A stretch of DNA of 64,000 nt, from the IMG/VR virus record IMGVR_UViG_3300029849_000005, positions 19,937 through 83,936 of that record; one strand, given 5' to 3'. The notes under the pieces are model-generated. The model was not told the origin of the DNA, made no database searches, and saw nothing but the letters and a program-made list of their open reading frames with translations. The stretch's first letter is position 1. Every line of letters starts with the position of its first letter. The position numbers and the translations under genes are program-made. The stretch comes from a virus (taxonomy: Duplodnaviria > Heunggongvirae > Uroviricota > Caudoviricetes). Positions 42,550 through 59,201 of this stretch are shown one piece after another.

Positions 42550-42552
42550 AAA

Positions 42553-45400: not shown

Positions 45401-47362
45401 TTACTTTACAGGAGGAAAATTATCACCTTTAGCTGGTGATTCTTCCGGCTTCTTGCCAGTGATTATTTGCTTAAGCGAATCTGCAATAGGCAAATTACGG
45501 GCAATCTCCAAGCTAGGAGCAAGATTCTTAGCCATATTAGCCATGAACTGCCCAGCAGTATTGGAGTCACCATACACAGTAACATTACCAAGCTGGATAT
45601 GTTCAAACACCTTAGCGTTGGCTTCAGCAACTTCTTTCCACCTGTCGGTCATTGCATATTGAACGATTGCTTCAGGATGCATACCTGATTTAATCATATG
45701 TTCAACTGCAAGAGCCGGAGCCATTTCCATTGCCTGTTTCTGTTCAGCTTCTGCCATTAAAGATGCTTTCTTACCTTCAGCTTCGGCAAGAAGTTTCTTC
45801 TTAGTACCTTCAGCTTCTGCTTCCAGTTGCATCTTAGTAGCATTTGCTTTAGCTTCTGCTGCTTTCAAGATTTTAGCTGCTTCCGCTTCTGCTTCAAGAA
45901 TGGCTACACTCTTAACAGCTTCTGCTTCAATCTTAGCTTTCTCTTTGGCCTTCTCGGCAGGTATAATCACTTCGGCTTTAAGCTTAGCTTCTTCAGCTTT
46001 AGCTTTAGCTTCATTAACTTCTACCTGACGTTCCTGCTCTGTTTTAGCAACTGCCATTTGAGCTTCAACTTTGGAAGTACCAGCTACTCTTTCAGCTTCA
46101 GCTTTAGCTTTCTCTGCTTCTCCCTTAGCTTTGGAAACTTCAATAGTAGCTTTCTGTTCAGCTACTCCTGCTGCTTTCTCTGCTTCAGCTGCCTTTTGAC
46201 GGGCTTCTGATTCATACTGTGCAGTTTTAGCTTCTTTCTCCTGCTGTGCTTTAACAGTTTCAGCTTCTTGGTTTTGTGCTGCTACTGCCATACGAACTTC
46301 CTTCTCTGCTTCTGCTTCTGCCTTAGCGGCTTCAGCTTTGGCAGTAAATTCTGCTTCTTTAGCAGTTGCATAAGCTTGCTGCTCTGCAATCTTGGCAGCT
46401 CTCAATGCTTCTTGCTCGGCAACTTTGGAAGCTTCTTCAGTTTGGGCTGTAGCCACACCAATTTCACGTTCCTTTCTTTGCTCTGCAACAGCAATTTGTT
46501 GCTCCTTATGCTGCTCGGCCAATTGAGTTTCTTTCTCTTTAGTGGTCTTAGCAATAGCAACTTCTTTCTCCCTGTTAGTTTCAGCCACTATAGTTTCTTG
46601 CTCCTTAGTAGCTGCTGCAATTGCAATCTCCTTCTCTCTCGTAGTTTGAGCTATCTGGATTGCTCCTTTCTTCTCTTCTTCTGCGATATCAGCTTGTGAT
46701 TGCGCTCTTGCTTTAGTCTCTTCTTTCTTACCAAGATTATCAATATATTGAGCAGCATCTTGAATGTCACTGATATTGATATTCATCAGATAAAGACCAA
46801 GTTTGTTCAATTCTGTATTGATATTGTCTCTAGCTTGAGCTAGGAACTTGTCTCTGTCAGAGTTAAGCTCTTCAATAGTCATCGAAGCAATAACAAGCCT
46901 CATCTGACCATAAACAATATCTGAAATCAAACTTTCTTTAACGTCATCATCAGCACCTAGTAAGCGATTAGCAGCATTCTGCATAATCAGCGGTTCTTGG
47001 CTAATAGCAACAGTTACAGTGGTAGGGATAGTTACACGAATATTTTGAGCTGACAAAGCATTCTTCAATACAAGATTCAATTGAATCGGTTGCATTGACA
47101 TTACTTCATAACCCTGTATAATCGGCCATACAAAAGCTGCACCACCATGATAAACCTTGGCAGTTTTAATTTCAACTTCTCTGTCAACCAGATTACCTTT
47201 AGCGTCGCGTTCGCTAACTTTCTCTTTGTGAGAGCCTGTTTTACCATAAACTACCAACAATTCGTCAGATTTACATTTACGGTAGCGGGATAGAATCCCA
47301 ATGATAGTGATGATTGCAACTAGTACAACTACACCAACGATAATTAATGATGTCATTTCCAT
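45401..47362 (-). CDS. flotillin-like SPFH/band-7 protein
   Basis: N-terminal TM, SPFH-domain region, long Ala/Glu-rich coiled-coil (EA repeats) and a flotillin-type C-terminal segment. 653 aa. Confidence 0.8.
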   Translation of the reverse strand: MEMTSLIIVGVVVLVAIITIIGILSRYRKCKSDELLVVYGKTGSHKEKVSERDAKGNLVDREVEIKTAKVYHGGAAFVWPIIQGYEVMSMQPIQLNLVLKNALSAQNIRVTIPTTVTVAISQEPLIMQNAANRLLGADDDVKESLISDIVYGQMRLVIASMTIEELNSDRDKFLAQARDNINTELNKLGLYLMNINISDIQDAAQYIDNLGKKEETKARAQSQADIAEEEKKGAIQIAQTTREKEIAIAAATKEQETIVAETNREKEVAIAKTTKEKETQLAEQHKEQQIAVAEQRKEREIGVATAQTEEASKVAEQEALRAAKIAEQQAYATAKEAEFTAKAEAAKAEAEAEKEVRMAVAAQNQEAETVKAQQEKEAKTAQYESEARQKAAEAEKAAGVAEQKATIEVSKAKGEAEKAKAEAERVAGTSKVEAQMAVAKTEQERQVEVNEAKAKAEEAKLKAEVIIPAEKAKEKAKIEAEAVKSVAILEAEAEAAKILKAAEAKANATKMQLEAEAEGTKKKLLAEAEGKKASLMAEAEQKQAMEMAPALAVEHMIKSGMHPEAIVQYAMTDRWKEVAEANAKVFEHIQLGNVTVYGDSNTAGQFMANMAKNLAPSLEIARNLPIADSLKQIITGKKPEESPAKGDNFPPVK

Positions 47363-47375
47363 CTTGAAATTGGTA

Positions 47376-47897
47376 TTAATCTATGTATAATTTATTGTCT
47401 TCGTATTTACGAATCGTTACTGGCTCATTGACAGGATATATCTTCTTATTAAGAGATACAACTTCTACTTCTCTCAATGCTCCACTTATGTTCACGGATG
47501 CCAAATGGCGCCCTTCACCTAAATGTACATAGATAGTAGCAGTTCTGCCAACTAAGTTAGTCTTCGGTTCGTCTTTAGGAAGGTTCTGCAATTTCATACA
47601 GAACTTATATAAATGATACAGCATAAATACAAATACAAGACCTATAAAGAATCCTATTAACCAATCAATCCAGGTTACTTCATAACCTAATAATTGCTTA
47701 ATAGATGTCCATCCTCCGAATCCCATGAAGAAATGGATAAATCCTTTAAAGGATACAACATCACTGACATCAAAGTCAGCATCACCATCAAAGTCTACGT
47801 CGACATCGAACTCCCCAGCAACCCATGATATTATGAATTGTAGGATAAATATACCATAGGCGATGCCTCCTAAGATATAATACAAGTTATTGTCCAT
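47376..47897 (-). CDS. NfeD-like membrane protein (partner of SPFH proteins)
   Basis: Two or three N-terminal TM helices and a C-terminal soluble beta-rich segment (VGRTATIYVHLGEGRHLASVNISGALREVEVV). Sits immediately upstream of the flotillin-like gene, as in bacterial nfeD-floT operons. Confidence 0.6.
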   Translation of the reverse strand: MDNNLYYILGGIAYGIFILQFIISWVAGEFDVDVDFDGDADFDVSDVVSFKGFIHFFMGFGGWTSIKQLLGYEVTWIDWLIGFFIGLVFVFMLYHLYKFCMKLQNLPKDEPKTNLVGRTATIYVHLGEGRHLASVNISGALREVEVVSLNKKIYPVNEPVTIRKYEDNKLYID

Positions 47898-47926
47898 CTT
47901 ACTAATAATTATTTAATCTATTAAAG

Positions 47927-47998
47927 TGGGGCGAGGAGGAATCGAACCTCCAACGCCAGGCTCTTCAGACCTGCGCTCTACCATTGAGCTACCGCCCC
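47927..47998 (-). tRNA. tRNA-Phe (anticodon GAA)
   Basis: Acceptor GGGGCGG/TCGCCCC. D arm GCTC-AATGGTA-GAGC. Anticodon loop CTGAAGA. T arm GGAGG-TTCGATT-CCTCC. Confidence 0.75.
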
Positions 47999-48297
47999 AT
48001 ACTGCCTACACGTACGTCTTCACTGGATTTTATGCTTTATTACGCCAGTTGCTTTGGACAGTCTAAATCCTTCGGTGCTGTACAGCCATACATATATTAG
48101 TGAGGCCTCCACTTTAATTAAGCTGCCATCGCACCTACTCCCATTACTTCGTCACGCAACGTACCCTACATTCCACTTTAGGATTTTCACCTAACCACAT
48201 CCTCGGCATTCCGTTTCAAGATAAAATATAACTCTGCTGAATAAGTCAAACCAAACAGGAAGATTTATGATACGTTTATACCTAAACAGCAGAATTG

Positions 48298-48371
48298 GGT
48301 GACATACGAGACTTGAACTCGTAACCCTTAGAACCACAACCTAATGCTCTGCCAATTGAGCTAATGCCACC
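48298..48371 (-). tRNA. tRNA-His (anticodon GTG)
   Basis: G-1 plus C73 arrangement. Anticodon stem TTAGG/TCTAA with loop TTGTGGT. T arm ACGAG-TTCAAGT-CTCGT. Confidence 0.75.
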
Positions 48372-48379
48372 ATATTGAG

Positions 48380-48958
48380 TTATTGCAACTCTAATCCTTC
48401 TTTTAGTGCCCTAGTATATGCCATTCTAGCAAAGAATAGTTCAGCCACAGCCATAACTACTGGCTCTGCTAACTCTTCGGCTTCTTCGGCTCTTTCTTCT
48501 TTGGGCTTAGATTCTACATATTCTAGTAATTCCAACACAGCTCTATTAGCTTCGACCAGGTGACTATAAGCAATGCGAACTTGTTTATAATTCTTATATC
48601 TTTCTCGATATGGTCTTATTGCATTCCATGAATATGAAGCAGCTACTATTATTGATATGGCACATAGTACCATAAATCCGAAGGGTTCTCCTTTAGACCA
48701 TGCTGAATAGATTTGACACAATACAGCACCCAAACATAGATTCTGTCCTATAAAGAGGGACAATAAGAACCAATAAGCTGAAAAGGCTTTCTTTGCTTCA
48801 TCAAGTAATGATGCTGACTCCTTTAGCTTCTCTTGTTCAGCTTTTAATGAGTCAATTGACACTTCCATAGCTTCTCCTTCGTCTGAATCTTTAAGGCGTT
48901 CATATTCCTCTTCACTAATCTTGGTTATTTTCAAATCTTCTAATTCTTCTCGATTCAT
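48380..48958 (-). CDS. membrane protein with coiled-coil N-terminus
   Basis: 192 aa, two central TM helices. Adjacent to the NfeD/flotillin pair. Confidence 0.45.
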   Translation of the reverse strand: MNREELEDLKITKISEEEYERLKDSDEGEAMEVSIDSLKAEQEKLKESASLLDEAKKAFSAYWFLLSLFIGQNLCLGAVLCQIYSAWSKGEPFGFMVLCAISIIVAASYSWNAIRPYRERYKNYKQVRIAYSHLVEANRAVLELLEYVESKPKEERAEEAEELAEPVVMAVAELFFARMAYTRALKEGLELQ

Positions 48959-48986
48959 TACCTTTCAATTTAAGTTCAACAATCTG

Positions 48987-49061
48987 TGGACCTGATGAGA
49001 CTCGAACTCACAACCCTCTGCGTGCAAGGCAGATGCTCTAGCCAATCTGAGCTACAGGCCC
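48987..49061 (-). tRNA. tRNA-Ala (anticodon TGC)
   Basis: G3:U70 wobble in the acceptor (GGGCCTG/CAGGTCC). Anticodon stem TCTGC/GCAGA with loop CTTGCAC. T arm GTGAG-TTCGAGT-CTCAT. Confidence 0.8.
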
Positions 49062-49248
49062 ATATTTAGCCACACTATCGTAGGGCTATCAGCTCCCAAC
49101 GTCCGACTGATTACGGAAGATTACCTACCGGTCTGATAATCTATGAAATGCACAATTACTTAGTCATACCCCAACTGTTCTTGTCAGTCTCCGACTCCAA
49201 CCCATAGCATGTTGTAGAACTCTACATGCATACCCTCCTCATTGTGCA

Positions 49249-49560
49249 CTATTTTAAACCTATCATTTCAGCAATTTCTTCAAATGAATAATTCAGGAAT
49301 AGTCTATCCATATCTGCATCAGATTTAACCCATTTAGGTCTAGGATATATAAGAGTAGGAGAATGTCCTCTCTCATGTAATCCATACACTACTTCCTTCT
49401 TACCTTTAATAAGACGAAGGTCAATATGCTCTGACATAGAAGAATAAAATCCTATATTAGAATCTTCTACATATGTAGAACCCTTCTTAGACATTACCTT
49501 GCGATAAGGTTTATACCCTTTACTAATTAAATACTCTACGAACCCAATCATGTTAACCAC
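49249..49560 (-). CDS. hypothetical protein
   Basis: 103-aa ORF. Confidence 0.4.
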   Translation of the reverse strand: MVNMIGFVEYLISKGYKPYRKVMSKKGSTYVEDSNIGFYSSMSEHIDLRLIKGKKEVVYGLHERGHSPTLIYPRPKWVKSDADMDRLFLNYSFEEIAEMIGLK

Positions 49561-49585
49561 TATTAGTACTCCAAGTAGGATTCAA

Positions 49586-49658
<73 letters not shown>

Positions 49659-49709
49659 AACTACATGACACAGTAAAAGTGCTGATGCCTTCTTATATTA
49701 CCCATTCAG

Positions 49710-50060
49710 TTATTCTAGATTAAGTAATTCTCTTGTCTCTTTCTTAAACTGTCTCCTATTATAGCGTTCTCCTTTACATATAGGACAACTACAAGGAGTA
49801 CTGGTTGTTTTATAGGCAAACGTATATTTAGAATTATATAATTCTGTCCAATGTCTACCTCTTGCCGTTTTATCTGGATTATACCAGTAGGCAGCGTGGA
49901 GTTTAATCCTAGTAATATACTTCTGGTCTTTCTTTAGGTTCCTCCACCTTTTGTTTCTTTGGATTAGTGAATCCTTCAGTTTCTCCGTTCTTAGTTCTTC
50001 CATCGTCTCTACCATTAGTGTTAATAATGTCTTGAGACGGGTTGTAGCCAGTTCCAACAA
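49710..50060 (-). CDS. hypothetical protein with C-terminal zinc-finger-like CxCPxC
   Basis: 116 aa. TPCSCPICKG. Confidence 0.4.
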   Translation of the reverse strand: MLELATTRLKTLLTLMVETMEELRTEKLKDSLIQRNKRWRNLKKDQKYITRIKLHAAYWYNPDKTARGRHWTELYNSKYTFAYKTTSTPCSCPICKGERYNRRQFKKETRELLNLE

Positions 50061-50109
50061 ACTTCTTCATATCCAATCCTGTTAAATTAATTCCTTTCAT
50101 ACGATAATT

Positions 50110-50403
50110 TTACAATCTGTTAAATACTGCATGTTCCTTTAACCACTCTTGATAGAGCTTATCATCATAGTTCCCTGAATACTCCCAATGAAATCTACTA
50201 CATTCTATAGTCTTTAGTAAGAACTTCATCACAGACCTTGTATTAGCCTTCTTTGATATAGATGAAATGTAAAACTTCTCTTTATCAAAATCATAGTATC
50301 CTCGTAATACCACTCGGCGAGAATTTTGTCTATTTAAGTAAATTCTTGCCAACAACTTGGAGTTATTGTCTACATATCGAGTAGGTATGAATTTATAAGC
50401 CAT
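50110..50403 (-). CDS. hypothetical protein
   Basis: 97-aa ORF. Confidence 0.4.
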   Translation of the reverse strand: MAYKFIPTRYVDNNSKLLARIYLNRQNSRRVVLRGYYDFDKEKFYISSISKKANTRSVMKFLLKTIECSRFHWEYSGNYDDKLYQEWLKEHAVFNRL

Positions 50404-50716
50404 CTGATTCAGCTAGCAATAAAGTAATACCAACACAATAGGCATTATTAACTGCATTCAGCCTCTTCTTAAGTTCCTTCTTAGCCTTTCTGGGCAACTT
50501 AGGATACTCTGCATATAAATCCTGTTCAGCGGCTCTGCTTGCTTCACTTAATTGCTCAAGTAAAGCATTAACATCTTCGTTAGTTTTGTAATCCTTAAGA
50601 AGGACTCTAACTAATGTGGGACGTTTTACCATTTCTCGCATTCCAGATTCGTACACTCTACAAATCTGATTTCTACTTAACGTAGACACTCTCCTTAATT
50701 TCACTTTAAACTTCAT
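50393..50716 (-). CDS. hypothetical protein
   Basis: 107-aa ORF. Confidence 0.4.
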   Translation of the reverse strand: MKFKVKLRRVSTLSRNQICRVYESGMREMVKRPTLVRVLLKDYKTNEDVNALLEQLSEASRAAEQDLYAEYPKLPRKAKKELKKRLNAVNNAYCVGITLLLAESDGL

Positions 50717-50735
50717 AATACATTCAAATTAGTTG

Positions 50736-50821
50736 AGGAAGCAGAGGGATTCGAACCCCCGGACCCCGAAGGGTCTCTGGTTTTCAAGACCAGTGCAATC
50801 GACCAACTCTGCCATACTTCC
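50736..50821 (-). tRNA. tRNA-Ser (anticodon TGA), type II
   Basis: Anticodon stem CTGGT/ACCAG with loop CTTGAAA. Long variable arm. T arm GGGGG-TTCGAAT-CCCTC. Confidence 0.75.
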
Positions 50822-50831
50822 AATTAATAAG

Positions 50832-50904
50832 CACGCCCTGCACGACTCGAACATGCAACCCATGGTTTTGGAGACCATTGTTCTACCGATTGAACTAAGG
50901 ACGC
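50832..50904 (-). tRNA. tRNA-Trp (anticodon CCA)
   Basis: Full 73-nt layout fits. Anticodon stem ATGGT/ACCAT with loop CTCCAAA. T arm GCATG-TTCGAGT-CGTGC. 10 nt downstream of tRNA-Ser. Confidence 0.7.
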
Positions 50905-51018
50905 ATCAATTTTAGATTGTGGAATCTTTAAAGATGTAATACAATACTACTAGCACTATAGCTCCCACAATGTAAGCACCAAAACTATGCATAATCTTAT
51001 AATTTAATGTTAATAATG

Positions 51019-51092
51019 CGGTGAGTGCAGGGCTCGAACCTGCGACCTGAAAGTTAACAGCTTTCTGCTACTACCAACTGAGCTAACTCACC
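51019..51092 (-). tRNA. tRNA-Asn (anticodon GTT)
   Basis: Acceptor GGTGAGT/ACTCACC. Anticodon stem GAAAG/CTTTC with loop CTGTTAA. T arm GCAGG-TTCGAGC-CCTGC. Confidence 0.75.
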
Positions 51093-51336
51093 ATAATGTT
51101 TAATTGACCTATCCCGATTGCATCGGAGTTAATCCCTATGGTAAGGAACTACTCCTGTTGGTGTCCAAGCATAGCTATTTGCAGCTATTCTAAAATACCA
51201 ACGAACTGCTTTCTTAATTAACTTAAATAGTCTCATAATACATCAGTTTTAGTCAATAAATAAGTAATCTAAATAAACCACTCTATCTTCACAGACTGAG
51301 TGGTCAAACTCGTTCTTTGACATCATGTACAATCTT

Positions 51337-51410
51337 AGTACATATGTGACTCCGCTGCGATTCGAACGCAGGACCCCGATATTAAAAGTATCGTGCTCTA
51401 ACCAGCTGAG
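51337..51410 (-). tRNA. tRNA-Lys (anticodon TTT)
   Basis: Anticodon stem CGATA/TATCG with loop CTTTTAA. T arm CTGCG-TTCGAAT-CGCAG. Confidence 0.75.
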
Positions 51411-51503
51411 CTACGGAATCATCCGCGGAAGGCGCGTTATCAAAAACATGTAAACTGTACAATGATTAGTGCTGTACGCCTTCTTATGTTTCACTAAATC
51501 GAG

Positions 51504-51575
51504 AGTGGGCTGACGGAATCGAACCGTCCTAACTGGTTTTGCGGACCAGCCCCTAAACCTCTCGGGCAAGCCCAC
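51504..51575 (-). tRNA. tRNA-Cys (anticodon GCA)
   Basis: Acceptor GTGGGCT/AGCCCAC. Anticodon stem CTGGT/ACCAG with loop CCGCAAA (C33, atypical). T arm GACGG-TTCGATT-CCGTC. Confidence 0.6.
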
Positions 51576-51800
51576 GTATCAATACGACTTATGGGCTTAA
51601 CTATGAAACAGGTTAATCAAATCATAAATTAAAAGTTGTTGAGTTGGTTGTTGAGTTGATTTGATAATTGTTTAGTGAAACTATATATTATTGTGTTAAT
51701 TATGGTTCTTATTAAAACTACTCTATTCTCACGAACGGAGTAGTTGTTCACATTTATTATTATGGGACTATCAGCATCCTCTCTTGGATGCTACAGGGGG

Positions 51801-51873
51801 TCGGGATGACTGGATTCAAACCAGCGACCTCGTGGTCCCAAACCACGCATTCTATCTACTGAACTACATCCCG
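51801..51873 (-). tRNA. tRNA-Pro (anticodon TGG)
   Basis: Acceptor CGGGATG/CATCCCG. Anticodon stem CGTGG/CCACG with loop TTTGGGA. T arm GCTGG-TTTGAAT-CCAGT. Confidence 0.75.
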
Positions 51874-51975
51874 GACTACAGAAGTCTCTTAGTTTAATTA
51901 AAATCATAAAATATGAAACACTTTCTTTCGTGCCGTAAGACTTCTTATTCAAAGCTATTGAAAATTGTTGTATTG

Positions 51976-52049
51976 TGGGTGTGCCTGGAATTGAACCAGG
52001 GACCTCATCCTTATCAGAGATGTGCTCTAACCAACTGAGCTACACACCC
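51976..52049 (-). tRNA. tRNA-Ile (anticodon GAT)
   Basis: Acceptor GGGTGTG/CACACCC. Anticodon loop CTGATAA. T arm CCTGG-TTCAATT-CCAGG. Confidence 0.75.
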
Positions 52050-52150
52050 ATCATCAGAAGACAATAGATTCATTTACTTATGCCAACATACAGGAAATTG
52101 CTGTGTGTCTTCTTAACATTCTGAAAATGCAAATGTACAATGATTGTAGT

Positions 52151-52227
52151 TGCGGAGATGGGAGTCGAACCCAATATAACTAGCTTATGAGACTAGTATG
52201 ATTTATATATCCGTTTCATTCCTCCGC
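52151..52227 (-). tRNA. tRNA with CAT anticodon (third copy; atypical long D loop)
   Basis: Acceptor GCGGAGG/TCTCCGC. Anticodon stem CTAGT/GCTAG with loop CTCATAA. T arm TTGGG-TTCGACT-CCCAT. D loop 14 nt. Confidence 0.5.
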
Positions 52228-52230
52228 AAG

Positions 52231-52302
52231 TGCCCCATGTTGGACTCGAACCAACGCCATACAAGTTTAGAATTTGCTCTTCTACCACTGAAGTAATGGG
52301 GC
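52231..52302 (-). tRNA. candidate amber-suppressor tRNA (anticodon CTA, reads UAG)
   Basis: Exact 73-nt canonical layout: acceptor GCCCCAT/ATGGGGC, D arm CTTC-AGTGGTA-GAAG, anticodon loop TTCTAAA (U33, A37), T arm GTTGG-TTCGAGT-CCAAC. The anticodon stem has only 3 Watson-Crick pairs plus G·U. Confidence 0.55.
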
Positions 52303-52339
52303 GACAGAGGGTTTTACGAGATTACCCACAACTCATCAA

Positions 52340-52657
52340 CTATTCGATAATTTGATTCCACTGTTCAAGTGTAAGTTCCTTGACTACTATGCCATTTAGT
52401 TCAAATGGAGTATATTGGTTTCCATTCTCTTCTACAAGGATTAACCATTCGTAGCCACGTTGCTTGCTATGAGTTCTAATAATCTCCTTAATGGTTTCGA
52501 TGCCAAAAGGAGTTAGAATCTTCTGCCCTTCTCTGTAAAGATACCTCTTGTTGAGGTCTTCTAAATCCTCTAATGTGGTTAAATGAGGATTAGGGTTCTT
52601 AGTGATAACTACATGGTCATCTCCTACACTAACATAATAATCTCGATTGTATATCAT
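52340..52657 (-). CDS. hypothetical protein
   Basis: 105-aa ORF. Confidence 0.4.
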   Translation of the reverse strand: MIYNRDYYVSVGDDHVVITKNPNPHLTTLEDLEDLNKRYLYREGQKILTPFGIETIKEIIRTHSKQRGYEWLILVEENGNQYTPFELNGIVVKELTLEQWNQIIE

Positions 52658-52956
52658 TCTCTTACTAATTTAAGTTTCTTGAACATGCGACCGTCATCTT
52701 GTAATGCGATTGCTGTTAATTGATTGCCAAGGTCTGGTTCATAGAATGAAGAATAGTCCTTATTAACTAAGTCCAGTCTTACTTTCCATTTGTCCAAGTC
52801 AGCATATAAGTAGATTAAGTAGTTATTATTCCAATCCTGCTTAGGATGTTCTAATAACCACTGCGCTACTGCATGACCTCCTTGTACACAACCATAAACT
52901 GCATCAAGCTTCTGGTCTATCAGCACATACAATCTCTTCATCAGAATATGTATCAA
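52654..52956 (-). CDS. hypothetical protein
   Basis: 100-aa ORF, start/stop-coupled. Confidence 0.4.
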   Translation of the reverse strand: MIHILMKRLYVLIDQKLDAVYGCVQGGHAVAQWLLEHPKQDWNNNYLIYLYADLDKWKVRLDLVNKDYSSFYEPDLGNQLTAIALQDDGRMFKKLKLVRE

Positions 52957-53242
52957 TCAGTGAATCAACTCTTTCTCGGAAATACTTCTCTCCACTATAC
53001 ATCTTAGAATAACCACACCAACCTTGAGTTTCAAGTGATTTCCATTCTTTGATAACTTTAGCGAGATACTCATCCATAGCTTCTCCGATTAGTTTATGCT
53101 TTAATATGTAATAAGCTACATACATTGCATGTAATCTTCCTCTGTTGTAATAAACTGATGAGCAGTCATTAATATTCTTAGCTGCTTTCTGTGCTTTTAC
53201 TAAATTCGCGATTTCTTGTTTAAATTGTTTAATTGTTGCCAT
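52904..53242 (-). CDS. hypothetical protein
   Basis: 112-aa ORF. Confidence 0.4.
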   Translation of the reverse strand: MATIKQFKQEIANLVKAQKAAKNINDCSSVYYNRGRLHAMYVAYYILKHKLIGEAMDEYLAKVIKEWKSLETQGWCGYSKMYSGEKYFRERVDSLIDTYSDEEIVCADRPEA

Positions 53243-53331
53243 GATAGTTAATTGTTAATAAGTTAATAAATAAATTGCCTTAATTAATAATCAACTATCT
53301 TATGGTGGCTTGTAAGTAATCTACCGCATAA

Positions 53332-53628
53332 TCATTTCCCTTTAATTTGTTTACACATGTTAATAAACTCATCATCCGATTCACATATAATCGGATTCGT
53401 TTCCTTGAGATACATCTCCAGATAGGCTTCTTTAGACAAATCGTCCACGTCATCCGGATACACACCATGTACATCATATGACATATGAGAACCCCAGCAA
53501 CTAAGCCAATCAGCATCCTCAAATGTAGTACATATACACACACTTAACCCAGCATCCTCTAGTTTCTTACGAAGTTCTGGAGTATTCTTCTTAATAAGAC
53601 AGTGTTCACTCATGGATTTAATACACAT
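53332..53628 (-). CDS. hypothetical protein
   Basis: 98-aa ORF. Preferred over the overlapping 53295..53543 frame. Confidence 0.35.
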   Translation of the reverse strand: MCIKSMSEHCLIKKNTPELRKKLEDAGLSVCICTTFEDADWLSCWGSHMSYDVHGVYPDDVDDLSKEAYLEMYLKETNPIICESDDEFINMCKQIKGK

Positions 53629-53851
53629 AAACCACCTTTCTCGGAATCTCTAAGCACATACCTGGAATACCAGGACCTGATACCTTATAAATGGTTAGTT
53701 CGTTAATAAATTCATACTGCACTCTGTTGATTTTATAATCTCCATTAGTAGCAGCAGACTCATTAATTGATGCTTTACTTGTGGTTGCAAATAATGCCAA
53801 GAAGGTAAATACTCCACCAATAACACCTGCCTTAAATGATGTCTCTTTCAT
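53618..53851 (-). CDS. small membrane/secreted protein
   Basis: The track ORF runs to 53932 but would overlap tRNA-Gly. Start moved to the internal Met MKETSFKAGVIGGVFTFLALF (hydrophobic N-terminus). Confidence 0.35.
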   Translation of the reverse strand: MKETSFKAGVIGGVFTFLALFATTSKASINESAATNGDYKINRVQYEFINELTIYKVSGPGIPGMCLEIPRKVVYVY

Positions 53852-53874
53852 AATCTCATCTATTATTAATAATG

Positions 53875-53946
53875 AGCGGGATAACAGAATCGAACTGTCA
53901 TCTTCAGCTTGGAAGGCTGTTATAATAACCATTATACGAATCCCGC
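53875..53946 (-). tRNA. tRNA-Gly (anticodon TCC)
   Basis: Acceptor GCGGGAT/ATCCCGC. Anticodon stem ACAGC/GCTGA with loop CTTCCAA. T arm GACAG-TTCGATT-CTGTT. The D arm is AT-rich and irregular. Confidence 0.55.
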
Positions 53947-54033
53947 AGTTTACTTCTACTATTCTCTCGAACCATAGAAGGGTTTGTCGAGTTTGACCTC
54001 AACAGATATTGTATTTAATTATCGCAGTGTGAG

Positions 54034-54116
54034 TGGGCATGGTAGGATTCGAACCTACTCAGCCATAGGCAACGGTTTTACAGACCGCCCCAGCTCTCCA
54101 ACTCTGGCGCATACCC
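54034..54116 (-). tRNA. tRNA-Tyr (anticodon GTA), type II
   Basis: Acceptor GGGTATG/CATGCCC. D arm CCAG-AGTTGGAGAG-CTGG. Anticodon loop CTGTAAA. Long variable arm. T arm GTAGG-TTCGAAT-CCTAC. Confidence 0.75.
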
Positions 54117-54366
54117 GAATCACACAATCCATATTAACTGTGAATTGTGAGTGCAAAGGTAATGAATCTTCCCCACATGTAAAAGTTAATATGTATTAAA
54201 TACGATAGAAGTTTGCTCGGTATTAAACTAAGCTCACATATTCTCTCGAACCGATGAGCTTAGTAGTTATTCAACAATTGCAGATACTTTAACTCGTAAT
54301 AATGACTATGAGTCGAGATAGAAATGACACTGCATATGTTGAAAGAATCATATTAATAAAATGGTG

Positions 54367-54440
54367 TAGAGATAACCAGATTCGAACTGATGTTCTTCTA
54401 AAGATTGACTTTAGCTGTTCTACCACTGAACTATATCTCT
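54367..54440 (-). tRNA. tRNA, identity undetermined (anticodon arm irregular; possible CAA)
   Basis: Canonical acceptor AGAGATA/TATCTCT, D arm GTTC-AGTGGTA-GAAC and T arm ATCAG-TTCGAAT-CTGGT. The anticodon region folds best as CTAAA/TTTAG with loop GTCAATC, but the spacing is off by 2 nt. Confidence 0.4.
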
Positions 54441-54603
54441 ATCCAGTCCCTATGGAATCATCCAATAAATTCCCACCTAGTGTTACTAGATATGCACAAA
54501 GATTACTATACCAAATATGCGCTCTTCTCCATGCATAATGAAATCTATCTTCTATCCAATCAGAACATTAATTCAACTATTAAATAAACGGTGCGCGAAA
54601 TAC

Positions 54604-56298
54604 TTAGACCTTCACAGGCTTCTTCTGCACGCTTGCATTCTTCTTGACAACATCCTTCTCTAGAATCATCATATTAAGCAACTCTTGATTCATAGCATGC
54701 TTAAAGATGTCTCTAGTGGTTTTAGGCACCTGGAACCTCTTCTCTCCAGTAATAAATGAGGATGTTGAATTATTAAGTCCATTTACTAAGAAGCAATTTG
54801 ACACTCCTGGAACCAAAGCCACATTAGGTCTTCCCTTATATGCTAAAGGAACTCTCCAAATGATAACTTTGAATGCTCTTACAAATTCCTTACTGAAATT
54901 TGCTTTAAGCAGTCTTTGCTTAAATTCCACGAATGCTTGGTTGTTCAACTTGGTAAAATATGTATGGTTAGTAATTACCACACAGCCTCTAGGGAACTCT
55001 CCTTCATCCACACCATAATCTTCTTTCATTTTACACAGCATTTCTGCTATATTAATAATAGAAGGATTCTGGCATAATGCTTCTTCTTTGTCAGATTTCC
55101 ATTTCTCAATGACATTCTGACCTTTGAACTTACGTAGAACCATGTTATCCTCTAACACGGCATAGGAGTTCTTGAATATTGTAGGAAGTAATTCAGAATG
55201 ATATAAAGCATATGCTTTACCCAAACTGTAAGCAGATGTTTCGCTATTCTCTATCTCACCATTAGCAGAATGACTTATATCTCTTACTACCAACAACGGA
55301 GCTACTCTATTGCGTTTAGCATTATCAACAAATACGTTGAAACTTGCATTAATAGAAGTTTCCATAAATTCTGGAATCTCTTCGGCAATTTTATCCAATC
55401 CGTATGGTTTGAACAGAGTATGTAGAAATCCGCTATTAGAGGGCTTCTTACGGTTCTTTAACCAGTTCCGATACTTCTCTTTAAGACCTTGATGTTTGAG
55501 GAATTTAGAGCCTACTAGCTGTGCCAGCGCCTTTCCAGTAACAGTGTCAAAATCGATTTCCAAGAATTTCTTTTGACTGATTAACTGCTGCCATTGGGCT
55601 GCTTTCCCGCTATTCTTCATCTTCCTATATTTACGATAGGTTGAATAGTCTCCTTCATCCTTAGGTTTACCATAAAGGCCTTCCGCCAAGAATTTGGCTA
55701 CTGTGTTACGTGCTTTTGCCTCATCTGTCTTACATGCAACACTGGAACGAACACGAGGAAGATACTTCTTTACTAAATCACATGTCTGACCGTTGGCAAG
55801 ACCTGCGAATATGACTTTCTTGAAGAAGTCCCAATCCAATCTGTGCTTAAAGCCATGGAGTTGAACATCTAAAGCCATCATAGTAATGAAATCTTTCCAG
55901 CATCCAGCTGCTGCAAAATAAGCAATGTTGGCATGGAATGTGGGTTTGTGATAGATTGCCAACCACAACATTCTCATTATACCTTCATTCTTCAAACCTT
56001 CTCCTTGCTGTGTATCAAGTTGTATAACTCCTTCCGGGGTAGTTATTCTACATTTACGAGTTATCATTCTCGTATATGCAGTAAACTTAGTACATAGTAA
56101 TGGATTAGCTTTCCATAAAGGATACATATCTTTAGCCACTTGCACGTAGGTACGTGGCTGAAGACATTTCTTAAGATTAACAAACTGGTCTATGAATAAC
56201 TGATTATTATCCACAAACTTAGGTTTATTCTCATCCCGCCTTTGACGTGCGGCATTAGGGTAAGGCCTCCTTGGCCTTTGTGCTCCTTTCATTTCCAT
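54604..56298 (-). CDS. large protein with possible C-terminal vWA-like region (TROVE/Ro60-like architecture is a weak possibility)
   Basis: 564 aa. DxSxS (VVRDISHSANG) about two-thirds of the way in, then a TN-containing strand (VVITNHTYF). Helical, K-rich N-terminal ~330 aa. Confidence 0.5.
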   Translation of the reverse strand: MEMKGAQRPRRPYPNAARQRRDENKPKFVDNNQLFIDQFVNLKKCLQPRTYVQVAKDMYPLWKANPLLCTKFTAYTRMITRKCRITTPEGVIQLDTQQGEGLKNEGIMRMLWLAIYHKPTFHANIAYFAAAGCWKDFITMMALDVQLHGFKHRLDWDFFKKVIFAGLANGQTCDLVKKYLPRVRSSVACKTDEAKARNTVAKFLAEGLYGKPKDEGDYSTYRKYRKMKNSGKAAQWQQLISQKKFLEIDFDTVTGKALAQLVGSKFLKHQGLKEKYRNWLKNRKKPSNSGFLHTLFKPYGLDKIAEEIPEFMETSINASFNVFVDNAKRNRVAPLLVVRDISHSANGEIENSETSAYSLGKAYALYHSELLPTIFKNSYAVLEDNMVLRKFKGQNVIEKWKSDKEEALCQNPSIINIAEMLCKMKEDYGVDEGEFPRGCVVITNHTYFTKLNNQAFVEFKQRLLKANFSKEFVRAFKVIIWRVPLAYKGRPNVALVPGVSNCFLVNGLNNSTSSFITGEKRFQVPKTTRDIFKHAMNQELLNMMILEKDVVKKNASVQKKPVKV

Positions 56299-56678
56299 CT
56301 CTTTGTTTAAATTTATTGTTATGAGAGTCTTTCTTTATTCTAAACAATAAACAAGCGGCATTACGGCAATTGGACATACGTTAACCCGCTCGCCACTTAC
56401 AGACCGTAATGCACACTTGACCAGGCAGGAAAGAGGTTTGCTTGGTGACCTATCTGCATGCTGATTATATAATGCAGACCGTGTAGATTCTCTCTTACAC
56501 AATATCTATAGTAGATTTGCACTACTGTTTTCTGATGCTTAATCAGGTGAACTTCTACTGTTCGAATAGATACAGGTTTCAACTCTTTGATATAGCCTTT
56601 AAGTCATAGACACACTCCGGAGTATGTCTACTGGTTCTTCAGACCAAGTTTTGCTACCACTATTCGTCAATAGTGGAT

Positions 56679-57374
56679 TTACGGTATTAGATAGTCCACA
56701 CGAAGGTCTACTGTCTCTTCGTTTGCTTCTAACACCACAGTCGTCGAAAGAATGTCAGGATTGTCAGCTGTAGTTATCATACTCACAATATCATGTGGGG
56801 ATTCTAAGTATAAATAACCTCTACCGTCCCAAGCTGGAACATATCCACCTCGTAGAATGTTTCGAGACGGAATAGACTTATAATAATAGTGTGCTGGCCG
56901 GTAGTGAGCGAATGATACATTAATAGCTGATTGGTGTGTGCCTATGGTAAAACCACCCAGGACTGTTGCCAGTCTCATCACCTTACTAACGTATTTTGAA
57001 TCGCCTACTACATCTAGTCTTATGTTCAAGCCTGGATAGTAGAATTTAGCAACTCTCCTGCTTATATCCTTCAACGTTTGAAGAGATTGAAATTCAGCAA
57101 CATCAACATAGTCTTTCTCCGATTCAGAACTACCGAAGATACAATTAATTGGTATTGGCTGATTGGCTTCAATACATTCTTCCAAAATAGTGATTGCTTC
57201 GGACGGAATAGCTTCATTACCAAGTCTGATTCTCTTAGTCCCATATAAGATATGAGCTATAATCTGACTAAGTGGCAATGATAATTTCTCCTTGGCAAAG
57301 TTGCTTTCCAAATCATATAGATATTGGCAAATATGTGCACTGAATGGCGTGTTCCCTTGTACTGTAAACTTCAT
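56679..57374 (-). CDS. hypothetical protein
   Basis: 231-aa ORF. A GSS...DYVD segment is weakly nucleotidyltransferase-like. Not assignable. Confidence 0.45.
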   Translation of the reverse strand: MKFTVQGNTPFSAHICQYLYDLESNFAKEKLSLPLSQIIAHILYGTKRIRLGNEAIPSEAITILEECIEANQPIPINCIFGSSESEKDYVDVAEFQSLQTLKDISRRVAKFYYPGLNIRLDVVGDSKYVSKVMRLATVLGGFTIGTHQSAINVSFAHYRPAHYYYKSIPSRNILRGGYVPAWDGRGYLYLESPHDIVSMITTADNPDILSTTVVLEANEETVDLRVDYLIP

Positions 57375-57868
57375 ACTATCTGTTCAACTGTTATTAATTT
57401 AGTGATTCTATAACCTCTCGATTTCAGGAATTTGATTGCTTCCATTTCAGCTTGTGTAATAGGAATCAGATGTTTGTCTTCTTCCGCTTCTGTAACAGCT
57501 TCCATTTCAGCTTGTGGCTTAGGTTTGGGAGGTGCTACATAAGTGCCAGCTTTAATAGCCATTCTCTTAGCATATGCATCTCTCTGTATCTTAGCCATTT
57601 CTTTCCTGCTGATAGTTATCAATTCAATGACTCTAGTCTCATACAAAGGGCCATGTTCTTTCCACATAAATCCTTTAGTATAGATAGCACTGTCAGGTTC
57701 AATCACTCCCTGCTTACGCAAAACAGCCATGAAGTTCTCTGGCCTTGGGAAGCCATTCTTCTTTAAATCCCTGACTACATCTGTAATCTTAAAAGGCCCA
57801 GGATTCATTGCCTTTACCGTGTTAAAAATCCGAACGATGTCATCGTCGGATATTGACCTCTTTCCCAT
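57371..57868 (-). CDS. hypothetical protein
   Basis: 165-aa ORF, coupled to the downstream gene. Confidence 0.4.
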   Translation of the reverse strand: MGKRSISDDDIVRIFNTVKAMNPGPFKITDVVRDLKKNGFPRPENFMAVLRKQGVIEPDSAIYTKGFMWKEHGPLYETRVIELITISRKEMAKIQRDAYAKRMAIKAGTYVAPPKPKPQAEMEAVTEAEEDKHLIPITQAEMEAIKFLKSRGYRITKLITVEQIV

Positions 57869-57894
57869 AATTTCAATAACTTTTAGTGAAACAA

Positions 57895-58176
57895 TTACTC
57901 TTTATATATTCTAATTCGAGATTTACGTAGATGTACACGCATTCGTTTAACCTCGGACAGAATCCAATTACGTTTGCATTGATGTAACCATGCAATTACA
58001 TCTTCGTCAAATAATAATTCTTGACCACAGTAGTATGTGCCACTGTAGTAAGTATCAAGCTTTGGTCTTAATATGTCATGAGGACTATCAGTAACTATGT
58101 ATTGATAATCCTCACCTCTTATTAATTTCAGCTTCTTTGACTCCTTGCGAAGTTTCTTTAATAACCTTGCTTTCAT
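57895..58176 (-). CDS. hypothetical basic protein
   Basis: 93-aa ORF. Confidence 0.4.
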   Translation of the reverse strand: MKARLLKKLRKESKKLKLIRGEDYQYIVTDSPHDILRPKLDTYYSGTYYCGQELLFDEDVIAWLHQCKRNWILSEVKRMRVHLRKSRIRIYKE

Positions 58177-58580
58177 TTTAATAGTTCCAATTTAGCTACG
58201 TCCTTATCATACCATATCCCAATCCAGAAGTTGTCTACAAAGTTCCTATGATTCATGATGGTATAATTAAGCCTTAAGATATCACTAGATATAAGATAGT
58301 AATTCTTCCTATCAGTAGCCTCCAATGTTTCTTTGAGCACTGCGTGCTTGCCAATAATTTGAATATTCCTTGTAATAGCGAATGGTAATGAAATCGCTGC
58401 CCCAACTGTTGCTATTGAGAATACAACCTCAACTGCCACTGCAACTCCTCTTAGGTCTTCAGACCCTACTCGCGAAAGACATACACAAATAAGTAAAACA
58501 ATCACTGCAATAATCCCATAAAATTGATATTTAAACGTTAATAATAGTGGACCATCGCGGACTCGAACCGCGGTCTTCAC
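58173..58580 (-). CDS. membrane protein (two TM helices)
   Basis: 135 aa. Its 5' end overlaps a tRNA 3'-fragment-like sequence, so the true start is uncertain. Confidence 0.4.
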   Translation of the reverse strand: MKTAVRVRDGPLLLTFKYQFYGIIAVIVLLICVCLSRVGSEDLRGVAVAVEVVFSIATVGAAISLPFAITRNIQIIGKHAVLKETLEATDRKNYYLISSDILRLNYTIMNHRNFVDNFWIGIWYDKDVAKLELLK

Positions 58581-59171: not shown

Positions 59172-59201
59172 ACTTGGCAGCTTACGAGTTATTTGTTCCA
59201 T

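What the first reader, a model, noticed from the sequence alone, without database searches (positions are those of the whole stretch)
52231..52302. Candidate amber-suppressor tRNA (anticodon CUA) embedded in the tRNA array
A 72-nt minus-strand gene fits the canonical tRNA layout position for position (acceptor, D arm, T arm, U33, A37). Its anticodon is 5'-CUA-3', which pairs with UAG. It lies 3 nt downstream of a CAT-anticodon tRNA. Phage suppressor tRNAs are established markers of stop-codon reassignment in late genes of some gut phages (crAss-like and Lak phages). This window's replication and metabolism genes read with the standard code. At least one gene, the PurA-like gene, ends in TAG. 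Any recoding would therefore have to apply to genes outside this window or be conditional.
Basis: partly seen in the sequence, partly recalled or inferred. Interest (0 to 1): 0.75.

Follow-up and report, generated by a model that had tools for sequence, protein, structure and literature searches.

The report
Unused amber-suppressor tRNA in crAss-like phage
The window carries a genuine, well-conserved tRNA whose anticodon reads the UAG stop codon, but this roughly 185-kb gut (Zeta crAss-like) phage has no genes that need it. That puzzle has already been described for this phage group, and its purpose is still unknown.

Summary
A canonical 72-nt tRNA with anticodon CUA lies at 52231-52302 (-) (ARAGORN; Rfam tRNA 62.7 bits), inside a 28-tRNA array.

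The recoding interpretation does not hold. I extended the window with GenBank MT835470 and IMG/VR contigs to about 185 kb. The genome reads densely in the standard code, including TerL, portal, capsid and tail genes, and code 15 adds nothing. Distant relatives act as positive controls. Their late genes collapse under code 11 and recover under code 15, and 166 of 529 in-frame TAGs align to Gln in our proteins. Those relatives use Gln-type suppressors. Ours is not Gln-type (G1-C72, C2-G71, C3-G70).

The tRNA is nevertheless under selection. Three syntenic alleles from three standard-code sister clades differ at 24 of 73 columns, yet 8 of 22 pairs changed compensatorily, including tertiary G19-C56 to A19-U56. 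CUA, A37 and A38 are invariant, and a 31/39 mismatch is kept in all three.

No release factor or aaRS gene was found.

Published work describes this situation: Yutin 2021, and an IJMS 2025 paper on Zeta crAss-like clade 8 ("CTA suppressor, no suppression").

Most likely it is an active suppressor acting on stop codons in trans, for example on host mRNAs. The inserted amino acid and the benefit are unknown.

The parts
52231..52302 (-). tRNA with anticodon CUA (amber-suppressor type), 72 nt with discriminator A73 and no encoded CCA. This is allele A of three orthologous alleles.
   Evidence: ARAGORN. Rfam tRNA 62.7 bits. Exact copies in 18 IMG/VR contigs. Eight of 22 pairs are compensatory across the 3 alleles.
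52150..52228 (-). tRNA-like element with anticodon-loop CTCATAA (CAT), a U1-A72 pair and a 14-nt D loop. It lies 2 nt 3' of the CUA tRNA and is probably co-transcribed with it.
   Evidence: Read from the sequence. Rfam tRNA 20.8 bits, below the gathering score. Not called by ARAGORN. Identical in all three clades; in L137 it is interrupted in the anticodon loop.
26237..59707 (-). Array of 28 tRNA genes interspersed with small ORFs in the early/replication block. The CUA tRNA sits in the conserved order Tyr-Gly-[CUA]-[CAT-like]-Ile-Pro-Cys-Lys-Asn-Trp-Ser.
   Evidence: The same order is found in sister clades L137, L138, L141 and L144. There are no tRNAs elsewhere in the genome.
40543..41610 (-). 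PurA-like (adenylosuccinate synthetase) gene ending in TAG. It is an example of TAG used as a true stop codon in early genes.
   Evidence: Pfam PF00709, 8.8e-35. The TAG stop is kept in four sister-clade loci.
52340..52657 (-). 105-aa ORF immediately upstream of the tRNA. It ends in TAG 37 nt before the tRNA, and the next in-frame stop is 5 codons later.

Best explanation
This is a functional, selectively maintained amber-suppressor-type tRNA of a standard-code Zeta crAss-like phage. The genome is about 185 kb with 36.9% GC.

Proposed mechanism:
- The tRNA is transcribed with the early/middle tRNA array.
- It is matured by RNase P/Z and given its CCA end. The phage encodes a CCA-adding-like enzyme.
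- It is charged by a host aminoacyl-tRNA synthetase.
- It then competes with host RF1 at UAG codons.

The phage has no in-frame UAG, so the tRNA's substrates can only be UAG stop codons. These are the stops of host mRNAs, and possibly of co-infecting amber-recoded phages, plus about 14% of the phage's own early genes, which would gain short tails. The benefit is therefore trans-acting (host takeover, anti-defence or interference), not decoding of recoded phage genes.

Shown: the tRNA is real, canonical and conserved by compensatory evolution with an invariant CUA; the lineage is not recoded; the tRNA is not of the Gln type used by recoded relatives.

Inferred: expression, charging, actual read-through, and the host-directed benefit.
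For: Real and canonical.

Under purifying selection:
- Three orthologous alleles sit at the same syntenic position in three clades (SPFH protein 69-75% identical, TerL 90-93% identical).
- They differ at 24 of 73 columns (17-20 per pair with the window allele).
- 95.5% of cells pair, and 8 of 22 pairs show double compensatory changes.
- These include D-stem C10-G25 to G10-C25 and tertiary G19-C56 to A19-U56.
- Slid-partner controls give 0-1 compensatory pairs.
- C34-U35-A36-A37-A38-C39 is invariant.

Not used for phage ORFs:
- Code 11 equals code 15 across the composite genome.
- TerL, portal, capsid and tail genes are intact.
- TerL neighbourhoods of 12 contigs that carry the exact tRNA are unrecoded.
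- In-frame TAG is no commoner than TAA or TGA in 1.93 Mb.

The method detects recoding when it is present. Relatives with TerL 42-61% identical go from 0.2-0.6 coverage under code 11 to 0.8-0.97 under code 15. In them, 166 of 529 TAGs align to Gln.

TAG is an ordinary, interchangeable stop in early genes of all three clades.

The late block has 0 TAG stops in 51 genes, against 21 of 146 in early genes (Fisher p=0.0025). That is compatible with late genes being read-through-proof.

The phage encodes tRNA-maturation and repair functions: a CCA-adding-like enzyme, PNKP, and a HAD_SAK_2-YqeY protein.

The literature reports the same pattern and offers the anti-host idea (PMC12386605, PMC7886860).
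Against: - There is no direct evidence of expression, charging or read-through.
- The host-directed benefit is untested, and its logic is weak: generalised read-through gives only short tails.
- The late-gene TAG avoidance is not specific. TGA is also depleted (5 of 51 against 41 of 146, p=0.007). In sister clade B, TerL itself ends in TAG.
- TAG stops are not followed by closer back-up stops than TAA or TGA stops (median 8, 6 and 4 codons). So there is no footprint of strong suppression on the phage's own genes.
- The conserved 31/39 mismatch, and C33 in allele B, could mean a deliberately weak decoder or a non-standard one.
Confidence: 0.5

Rival explanations
1. One reading: the tRNA marks stop-codon reassignment. 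TAG is read as an amino acid (code 15) in late or structural genes outside the window, as in recoded crAss-like and Lak phages.
For: The phage belongs to a family in which amber recoding is common. Relatives with TerL 42-61% identical are clearly amber- or opal-recoded. Suppressor tRNAs correlate with recoding in surveys.
Against: - The whole genome of about 185 kb was reconstructed and reads in code 11, with no gain under code 15.
- Late hallmark genes are intact.
- TerL regions on 12 contigs that carry the exact tRNA are unrecoded.
- Only 2 in-frame TAGs occur in 1.93 Mb, the same as for TAA.
- No RF2 or aaRS gene was found.
- The tRNA is not the Gln type used by the recoded relatives.
Confidence: 0.04
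2. An evolutionary by-product with no function. It would be either a pre-adaptation (incipient recoding that has not yet accumulated TAG codons, as Yutin et al. proposed) or a relic of a formerly recoded ancestor, carried neutrally.
For: Yutin 2021 documents suppressor 'pre-emergence' in standard-code crAss-like phages. Borges et al. propose acquisition of a suppressor before recoding. Recoded and standard clades are interleaved in the Zeta group.
Against: - A neutral gene would decay. Instead there are eight compensatory pair changes with an invariant anticodon across three diverged clades.
- None of those clades has accumulated in-frame TAGs.
- TAG is not depleted in early genes (14%), unlike the proposed pre-recoding state.
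- The tRNA is not homologous to the Gln-type suppressors of the recoded relatives and sits elsewhere in the genome.
- The IJMS 2025 authors also judged incipient recoding unlikely.
Confidence: 0.15
3. Programmed read-through of particular phage genes. The tRNA would make C-terminally extended isoforms of a few TAG-terminated phage proteins.
For: - A 164-aa ORF ends in TAG and is followed in frame, after 4 codons, by a 180-aa ORF (composite 169819-170868). This arrangement is kept in three clade-A loci.
- The TAG stops of the PurA-like gene and of the 297-aa gene at 43882-44775 are conserved across clades.
- Clade-B TerL has TAG where clade A has Gln, with TAA at the same final position.
Against: - The 180-aa ORF has its own ATG. 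Sharing a frame is a 1-in-3 chance, and the pair is absent from clades B and C.
- Extensions behind conserved TAG stops are short (2-36 codons) and not conserved in length.
- TAG stops otherwise interchange freely with TAA and TGA.
Confidence: 0.1
4. Not a UAG decoder at all. It would be a tRNA-Arg(UCU)-derived paralogue with an effectively 9-nt anticodon loop (31/39 unpaired). That loop might present another register (UCU or CCU), or the molecule might serve a non-decoding role such as a decoy or a regulator of a tRNA-targeting enzyme.
For: - Arg-UCU is the most similar array member for all three alleles against the L144 array (0.68-0.70, next best 0.62-0.65).
- Alleles B and C share with Arg-UCU the unusual A19/U56 and the T loop TTTGAAT.
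- The loop strings are related by a 1-nt shift (CTTCTAA against TTCTAAA).
- The 31/39 mismatch is conserved in all alleles and is unique among the 28 tRNAs.
- Allele B has C33.
- The phage carries tRNA-repair genes, which suggests conflict with tRNA-targeting defences.
Against: - Similarity to Arg-UCU is only marginally above other tRNAs. Against the window's own array, Arg-ACG (0.70) and Trp (0.68) tie with it.
- A19/U56 also occurs in the Asp and Pro tRNAs.
- The symmetric 7-nt reading gives a textbook suppressor context: U33 in alleles A and C, CUA, A37, A38.
- Unrelated phage CUA tRNAs (L022, L023) share A31/C39. That links the mismatch to UAG decoding rather than to another register.
- C33 also occurs in two ordinary tRNAs of the array.
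Confidence: 0.08

Closest known systems
[quoted passage not shown]
   Same: - Genome of about 185 kb, within the published range of 164-188 kb.
- GC 36.9%, against 35.4-36.9% in the paper.
- 28 tRNAs, against 20-29.
- A polA gene, and a tRNA block at the start of the replication module.
- A single CTA tRNA and no suppression anywhere in the genome.
- The same open question about function.
   Different: I could not compare sequences with the published genomes because they are not in the searchable collections. Membership therefore rests on matching attributes. The paper does not report the compensatory evolution, the non-Gln character or the 31/39 mismatch found here.
Gln-type amber suppressor tRNAs of code-15 phages (crAss-like, Lak; Borges 2021/2022, Yutin 2021, Peters 2022)
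   Same: Anticodon CUA with A37 and A38, phage-encoded, from the gut virome. The family includes relatives of this phage (L092, L099, L106, L111).
   Different: - Those tRNAs have U1-A72, mostly with G2/G3 (L092 TGGGATA) and a GGTGTAA-type D arm like tRNA-Gln.
- They lie near TerL and serve hundreds of in-frame TAGs that align to Gln.
- Ours has G1-C72, C2-G71, C3-G70 (U-A in allele B), a D stem that switches between C10-G25 and G10-C25, and an unpaired 31/39.
- Ours lies in the early tRNA array and serves no in-frame TAG.
'Pre-emergent' suppressor in alpha-group crAss-like phage OKSC01000115 (tRNA-Gln TTG to TTA; Yutin 2021, PMC7886860)
   Same: A suppressor tRNA in a phage with no trace of reassignment.
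   Different: That case is a single recent point mutation in one genome. Ours is an old gene kept through substantial divergence, with compensatory changes and no sense-anticodon sibling in IMG/VR.
Laboratory amber suppressors of E. coli (supE, supF, su7) and the 'extended anticodon' rules (Yarus). This comparison rests on my own knowledge.
   Same: CUA with U33, A37 and A38 is the favourable context for UAG reading. Such tRNAs compete with RF1 and extend TAG-terminated proteins.
   Different: Those arise by anticodon mutation of a sense tRNA and keep its identity set. Here the parent isoacceptor and the amino acid are unknown, and the 31/39 pair is broken.

Membership tests
Canonical elongator tRNA (Rfam RF00005) | Cloverleaf that scores above the family's gathering threshold | tested here: met
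   62.7 bits against a gathering score of 29, full model 1-71. ARAGORN also calls it.
Canonical elongator tRNA (Rfam RF00005) | Conserved tertiary nucleotides (U8, A14, G18G19, T54-Psi55-C56, A58) and helices supported by covariation | tested here: met
   All are present in the sequence. Eight of 22 pairs are compensatory, including 19-56. The exception is 31/39, which is never paired.
Amber suppressor tRNA (decodes UAG) | Anticodon 5'-CUA-3' in a 7-nt loop with U33 and a purine at 37 | tested here: met
   Loop UUCUAAA in alleles A and C. Allele B has CCCUAAA, so C33.
Amber suppressor tRNA (decodes UAG) | Aminoacylated and able to insert an amino acid at UAG in vivo | not testable with these tools
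   Needs charging and read-through assays or proteomics.
Code-15 (TAG to Gln) recoding system of crAss-like and Lak phages | In-frame TAG codons in late/structural genes; coding density rises under code 15 | tested here: not met
   Code 11 equals code 15 over the composite and the TerL loci. Only 2 in-frame TAGs in 1.93 Mb. Positive controls in distant relatives behave as expected.
Code-15 (TAG to Gln) recoding system of crAss-like and Lak phages | Suppressor derived from tRNA-Gln (U1-A72, G2-C71, G3-C70, Gln-like D arm) | tested here: not met
   Ours has G1-C72, C2-G71 and C3-G70 (U-A in allele B), and a D stem that switches between C10-G25 and G10-C25. The relatives' suppressors are Gln-like.
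Code-15 (TAG to Gln) recoding system of crAss-like and Lak phages | Accessory code-change genes (RF2, aaRS). These are optional and present in only some recoded phages. | tested here: not met
   No RF-1, PCRF or aaRS Pfam domains in the 61 ORFs scanned. Most ORFs of at least about 170-200 aa in the early block were scanned, plus the gap region. Shorter ORFs were not scanned.
tRNA-Pyl (ARAGORN's label) | Six-bp anticodon stem, 3-nt variable loop, small D loop without G18G19, no T-Psi-C motif, and pylS/pylBCD genes | tested here: not met
   It has a standard D loop with G18G19 (allele A), a 5-nt variable loop and a TTCGA T loop. No Pyl genes appeared in the Pfam scans. The label comes from the anticodon alone.
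[quoted passage not shown] | Crassvirales-related TerL; genome of 164-188 kb; 20-29 tRNAs; polA; GC 35-37% | tested here: met
   TerL is about 30% identical to Crassvirales. Genome about 184.8 kb. GC 36.9%. 28 tRNAs. PolA present. Compared with Table 1 of the paper.
[quoted passage not shown] | One CTA tRNA and no suppression in the genome | tested here: met
[quoted passage not shown] | Sequence-level grouping with the published genomes (ct3H02, 3468_61007, etc.) | not testable with these tools
   Those records are not in the 'phages' collection. Megablast of window 50000-56000 found nothing.

The most novel reading that the evidence does not exclude
The CUA tRNA may be a purpose-built trans-acting effector rather than a decoding aid. 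On this reading it is an old, non-Gln-type suppressor with a tuned anticodon arm: the 31/39 mismatch is conserved, and it has also arisen in unrelated phage CUA tRNAs.

Standard-code Zeta crAss-like phages would keep it to rewrite termination at UAG in the infected cell. That could cripple host or defence proteins. Alternatively it could de-repress, and so mistime, the TAG-gated late and lysis genes of competing amber-recoded phages or prophages in the same Bacteroides host.

It may also insert an amino acid other than Gln.
Probability: 0.3. Interest if true: 0.7.

Novelty: already known. Interest (0 to 1): 0.35.

Why it matters
Suppressor tRNAs are usually read as flags of genetic-code change, and annotation pipelines may switch code on seeing one. 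This case shows the flag can be false. A whole lineage keeps an amber suppressor under selection while using the standard code.

If the tRNA acts on host or competitor messages, it would be a new class of phage weapon that edits the cell's genetic code instead of the phage's own. The function of these 'silent' suppressors is an acknowledged open question (PMC12386605).

The compensatory-evolution evidence here argues that the answer is a function, not an accident.

Tried and rejected
1. Sense-anticodon sibling. I searched IMG/VR with the backbone pattern and a free anticodon to reveal the tRNA's parent identity. Only three alleles turned up, all CUA.

2. Bacterial homologue. A scan of GTDB species representatives for the D arm plus T loop gave one chance hit inside a Terracidiphilus tRNA-Leu call.

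3. Looser CUA-tRNA pattern. It found three unrelated phage suppressors (L022-L024). They are not homologous, but two share A31/C39.

4. Late genes avoiding TAG because of the suppressor. The late block has 0 TAG stops in 51 genes against 21 of 146 in early genes (p=0.0025). But TGA is also depleted (p=0.007), TerL ends in TAG in clade B, and the gene upstream of TerL ends in TAG in L059 and L062. I rejected this as specific evidence.

5. Back-up stops after TAG. They are no closer than after TAA or TGA.

6. The 164-aa-TAG-180-aa read-through candidate. It is not conserved outside clade A and the second ORF has its own start codon. I did not pursue it.

7. Incipient recoding. The in-frame stop survey gave TAG 2, TGA 0 and TAA 2.

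8. Paralogy with Arg-UCU. It is suggestive but not robust.

9. Sigma-70 promoter and terminator scan around the gene. Nothing rose above the shuffled expectation, and the scan is uninformative for Bacteroides and crAss promoters anyway.

10. A literature search for MT835470 found no paper.

Full report
**1. The observation**

ARAGORN finds 29 tRNA calls in the window. One is a plus-strand mirror artefact over tRNA-Ser. Among the rest is a 73-nt call at 52230-52302 (-) with anticodon cta. Rfam's tRNA model matches 52231-52302 (-) end to end at 62.7 bits, against a gathering score of 29.

Read directly, the gene parses as follows:

| Element | Sequence |
|---|---|
| Acceptor 5' strand | GCCCCAT |
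| Positions 8-9 | TA |
| D stem / loop / stem | CTTC / AGTGGTA / GAAG |
| Position 26 | A |
| Anticodon stem 5' | GCAAA |
| Anticodon loop | TTCTAAA |
| Anticodon stem 3' | CTTGT |
| Variable loop | ATGGC |
| T stem / loop / stem | GTTGG / TTCGAGT / CCAAC |
| Acceptor 3' strand | ATGGGGC |
| Discriminator | A |

All the usual invariant nucleotides are present, and CCA is not encoded.

Its one oddity is A31 opposite C39. None of the other 27 tRNAs in the array has an unpaired 31/39.

The neighbouring CAT-anticodon 'tRNA' exists only as a sub-threshold tRNA-like element at 52150-52228 (-). It has a 14-nt D loop and scores 20.8 bits. It lies 2 nt downstream of the CUA tRNA, not upstream as the finding says.

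**2. What genome this is**

The window has 37.7% GC. All genes are on the minus strand, and it is 84% coding in the standard code. It encodes:
- NrdD, a PIF1/RecD-like helicase, a DnaB-like helicase, a primase-like Toprim protein and an SNF2-type helicase;
- an SPFH protein, a ferritin-like protein and a PurA-like enzyme that ends in TAG.

Window 1-6777 is 99% identical to the start of GenBank MT835470.1, an unannotated 117,447-bp record from human faeces. I joined the two into a 174,670-bp composite.

The remaining ~10 kb is covered by IMG/VR contig 3300045988_032988, which carries the exact tRNA (L157 and L028). On that contig the distance from TerL to the 564-aa gene of the window implies a circular genome of about 184.8 kb. 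Composite GC is 36.9%.

The rest of the genome holds:
- PolA, ThyX and NAD-salvage enzymes;
- a CCA-adding-like nucleotidyltransferase, PNKP and a HAD_SAK_2-YqeY RNA-repair protein;
- on the opposite strand, a 77-kb late block with TerL, portal, major head protein, tail fibres and giant 2,275- and 2,967-aa proteins.

TerL's best named relatives are Crassvirales at about 30% identity. Size, GC, tRNA number and polA match the Zeta crAss-like group, specifically clade 8 of PMC12386605.

**3. Is anything recoded?**

No.
- Under code 11, ORFs of at least 150 codons cover 91-100% of each 5-kb bin of the late block except the bin at its end. Reading TAG as sense adds at most 0.01.
- Every late hallmark gene is intact.
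- The TerL neighbourhoods of close relatives (TerL at least 90% identical) give code 11, code 15 and code 4 coverage that is essentially equal, about 0.8-0.95. Twelve of these contigs also hold the exact tRNA.
- The method works. TerL relatives at 42-61% identity jump from 0.17-0.60 under code 11 to 0.77-0.97 under code 15, or to about 0.86 under code 4.
- In the amber-recoded relatives, 166 of 529 in-frame TAGs align to Gln in our proteins, against a background of 3.7%. In the opal-recoded relatives, 46 of 136 TGAs align to Trp.
- A survey of 1.93 Mb from this clade and its two sister clades found 2 in-frame TAGs inside conserved ORFs, against 0 TGA and 2 TAA. That is background-level nonsense, not incipient recoding.
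- No RF1, RF2, aaRS or Pyl domain was detected.
- No other tRNA exists outside the window's array.

**4. Is the tRNA maintained?**

Yes.

The SPFH gene brought in syntenic arrays from two sister clades, with the order Tyr-Gly-[CUA]-[CAT-like]-Ile-Pro-Cys-Lys.... A backbone pattern with a free anticodon found 27 IMG/VR contigs and only three alleles, all CUA. Allele A is the window's, in 18 contigs. Allele B is in 8 contigs, and allele C in 1.

The alleles differ at 24 of 73 columns, yet 95.5% of cells pair. Eight of 22 pairs changed on both sides:
- 3-70;
- 10-25;
- 28-42 and 30-40;
- 49-65, 50-64 and 51-63;
- the tertiary pair G19-C56 to A19-U56.

Sliding the 3' partners gives 0-1 compensatory pairs. 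C34-U35-A36-A37-A38-C39 is invariant. Positions 31/39 are unpaired in all three alleles (A.C, A.C, C.C). Both sister clades are also unrecoded around TerL (L055-L057, L059).

A decaying relic or a recent accident would not look like this.

**5. What kind of suppressor?**

The amber-recoded relatives carry CUA tRNAs near TerL (L092, L099, L106, L111). They share U1-A72. Three of them (L092, L106, L111) have the GGTGTAA-type D arm of the phage's own tRNA-Gln, and L092 also has G2 and G3. That is consistent with TAG read as Gln.

Ours has G1-C72, C2-G71 and C3-G70 (U-A in allele B), and a D stem that flips between C-G and G-C. It is therefore a different lineage and lacks the acceptor and D-arm features of tRNA-Gln.

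Its nearest array paralogue is, weakly, tRNA-Arg(UCU), but it lacks A20 and C35.

From my own knowledge of E. coli amber suppressors, a CUA tRNA with A73 and no strong identity set tends to be charged with Gln or Lys. Tyr is also conceivable, given U35, A36 and A73. The amino acid cannot be settled here.

**6. Effects on the phage's own stop codons**

Stop-codon usage:

| Gene set | TAG | TGA | TAA |
|---|---|---|---|
| Early/middle-strand genes (146) | 21 (14%) | 41 | 84 |
| Late block (51) | 0 | 5 | 46 |

- The late-block TAG difference is significant (p=0.0025), but TGA is depleted too (p=0.007).
- In clade B, TerL itself ends ...F-I-TAG-R-S-I-L-TAA, where clade A has ...F-I-Gln-T-D-L-S-TAA.
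- TAG stops swap freely with TAA and TGA between clades. Some are conserved, such as those of the PurA-like gene and the 297-aa gene.
- Extensions behind TAG are no shorter than behind other stops.

So the phage tolerates read-through rather than depending on it.

**7. Interpretation**

The best-supported reading is an active suppressor with no cis targets. It can then only act on UAG stop codons: those of the host, of co-infecting phages, and of some of the phage's own early genes.

Why that pays is unknown. Published ideas are impairment of host or defence protein production (PMC7886860, PMC12386605). Interference with TAG-gated late genes of amber-recoded competitors is my own speculation.

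The rivals are given with probabilities in the rival-explanations section:
- true recoding;
- neutral pre-adaptation or relic;
- programmed read-through of particular phage genes;
- a non-UAG or non-decoding role.

**8. Novelty**

Suppressor tRNAs in crAss-like phages without reassignment were noted by Yutin et al. 2021.

The IJMS 2025 paper states that all clade-8 Zeta crAss-like genomes carry a CTA tRNA with no suppression. It discusses the same puzzle.

The finding is therefore already known in kind and almost certainly in instance.

What this analysis adds:
- evidence of purifying selection, through compensatory and tertiary-pair covariation;
- the non-Gln character of the tRNA compared with the recoded relatives;
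- the conserved 31/39 mismatch, shared with two unrelated phage CUA tRNAs;
- a quantitative null for incipient recoding.

**Caveats**
- The composite joins sequences from different samples, 99% identical over the 6.8-kb overlap.
- Gene calls are simple ORF-based calls.
- Only three alleles support the covariation.
- Pfam scans skipped most ORFs under about 170 aa.
- Placement in clade 8 rests on matching attributes, not on sequence comparison.

Noticed in passing
window 56569-56676 (-): Full-length match to Rfam RAGATH-34 RNA (121.5 bits against a gathering score of 60.7). It lies between two small ORFs inside the tRNA/early block.
   Followed up: no
window 52150-52228 (-); L136, L138, L141, L144; L137 2184-2230: The CAT-anticodon tRNA-like element (U1-A72, 14-nt D loop; Rfam 20.8 bits) is 100% identical in all three clades, although the adjacent CUA tRNA differs at 17-20 of 73 nt. 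In L137 it is interrupted directly after CTCATA (position 37/38) by inserted sequence. That suggests an intron or mobile-element insertion in the anticodon loop.
   Followed up: partly
window 54366-54440 (-); L144 457-531: The 'tRNA-Leu(CAA)' call is 75 nt with a short variable arm. It has T37 and a potential G32-C38 pair, giving an effective 5-nt loop, so it is not a class II tRNA-Leu. Its syntenic counterpart in clade C has a different non-canonical anticodon loop, which ARAGORN labels '???' with a 2-nt anticodon.
   Followed up: partly
window 38181-38263 (-), 51503-51575 (-), 43008-43091 (-): tRNA-Leu(TAG) and tRNA-Cys(GCA) have C33 instead of the near-universal U33. tRNA-Thr(TGT) is 84 nt with a long extra arm. 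No tRNA-Val is called in the array. The plus-strand 'tRNA-Arg(tcg)' at 45210-45286 is a mirror artefact of tRNA-Ser(GCT).
   Followed up: no
L022 3715-3787, L023 4178-4252 (unrelated IMG/VR phage contigs): Two unrelated phage CUA tRNAs also have loop UUCUAAA closed by an A31/C39 mismatch. This could be a convergent feature of phage amber suppressors.
   Followed up: partly
L056/L057 12170-12275 compared with L046 12190-12277: In sister clade B, TerL ends F-I-TAG-R-S-I-L-TAA, where clade A has F-I-Gln(CAA)-T-D-L-S-TAA and clade C has F-I-His-P-D-L-Q-TAA. A TAG therefore sits at a Gln-aligned position five codons before a conserved TAA.
   Followed up: partly
L060-L066, L062 10001-13274, L087 10001-13256: In some close relatives TerL is split by an insertion of about 1 kb that carries a 281-aa ORF. 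This is probably an intron with a homing endonuclease, in keeping with the intron-rich Zeta group.
   Followed up: no
MT835470 11043-11807, 12438-13358, 23770-28426, 29901-30806 (L019): The early block encodes a CCA-adding-like nucleotidyltransferase, PNKP and a HAD_SAK_2-YqeY 'Swiss-army-knife' RNA-repair protein. It also encodes an NAD salvage set: NAPRTase, NAD synthase, an NMNAT-like enzyme and a NUDIX protein. Both are typical counter-defence toolkits.
   Followed up: partly
composite 169819-170868 (MT835470 112596-113645); L046 1806-2855: A 164-aa ORF ends in TAG and is followed in the same frame, four codons later, by a 180-aa ORF with its own ATG. The arrangement is kept in three clade-A loci and is absent from clades B and C.
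   Followed up: partly
L129 20886-20888; L132 227-229: Two singleton in-frame TAGs lie inside otherwise conserved early ORFs. One is in the orthologue of window 36718-37569 and aligns to Ser. The other is in the orthologue of window 53618-53932 and aligns to Glu. They could be nonsense mutations tolerated because of the suppressor, or sequencing errors.
   Followed up: no
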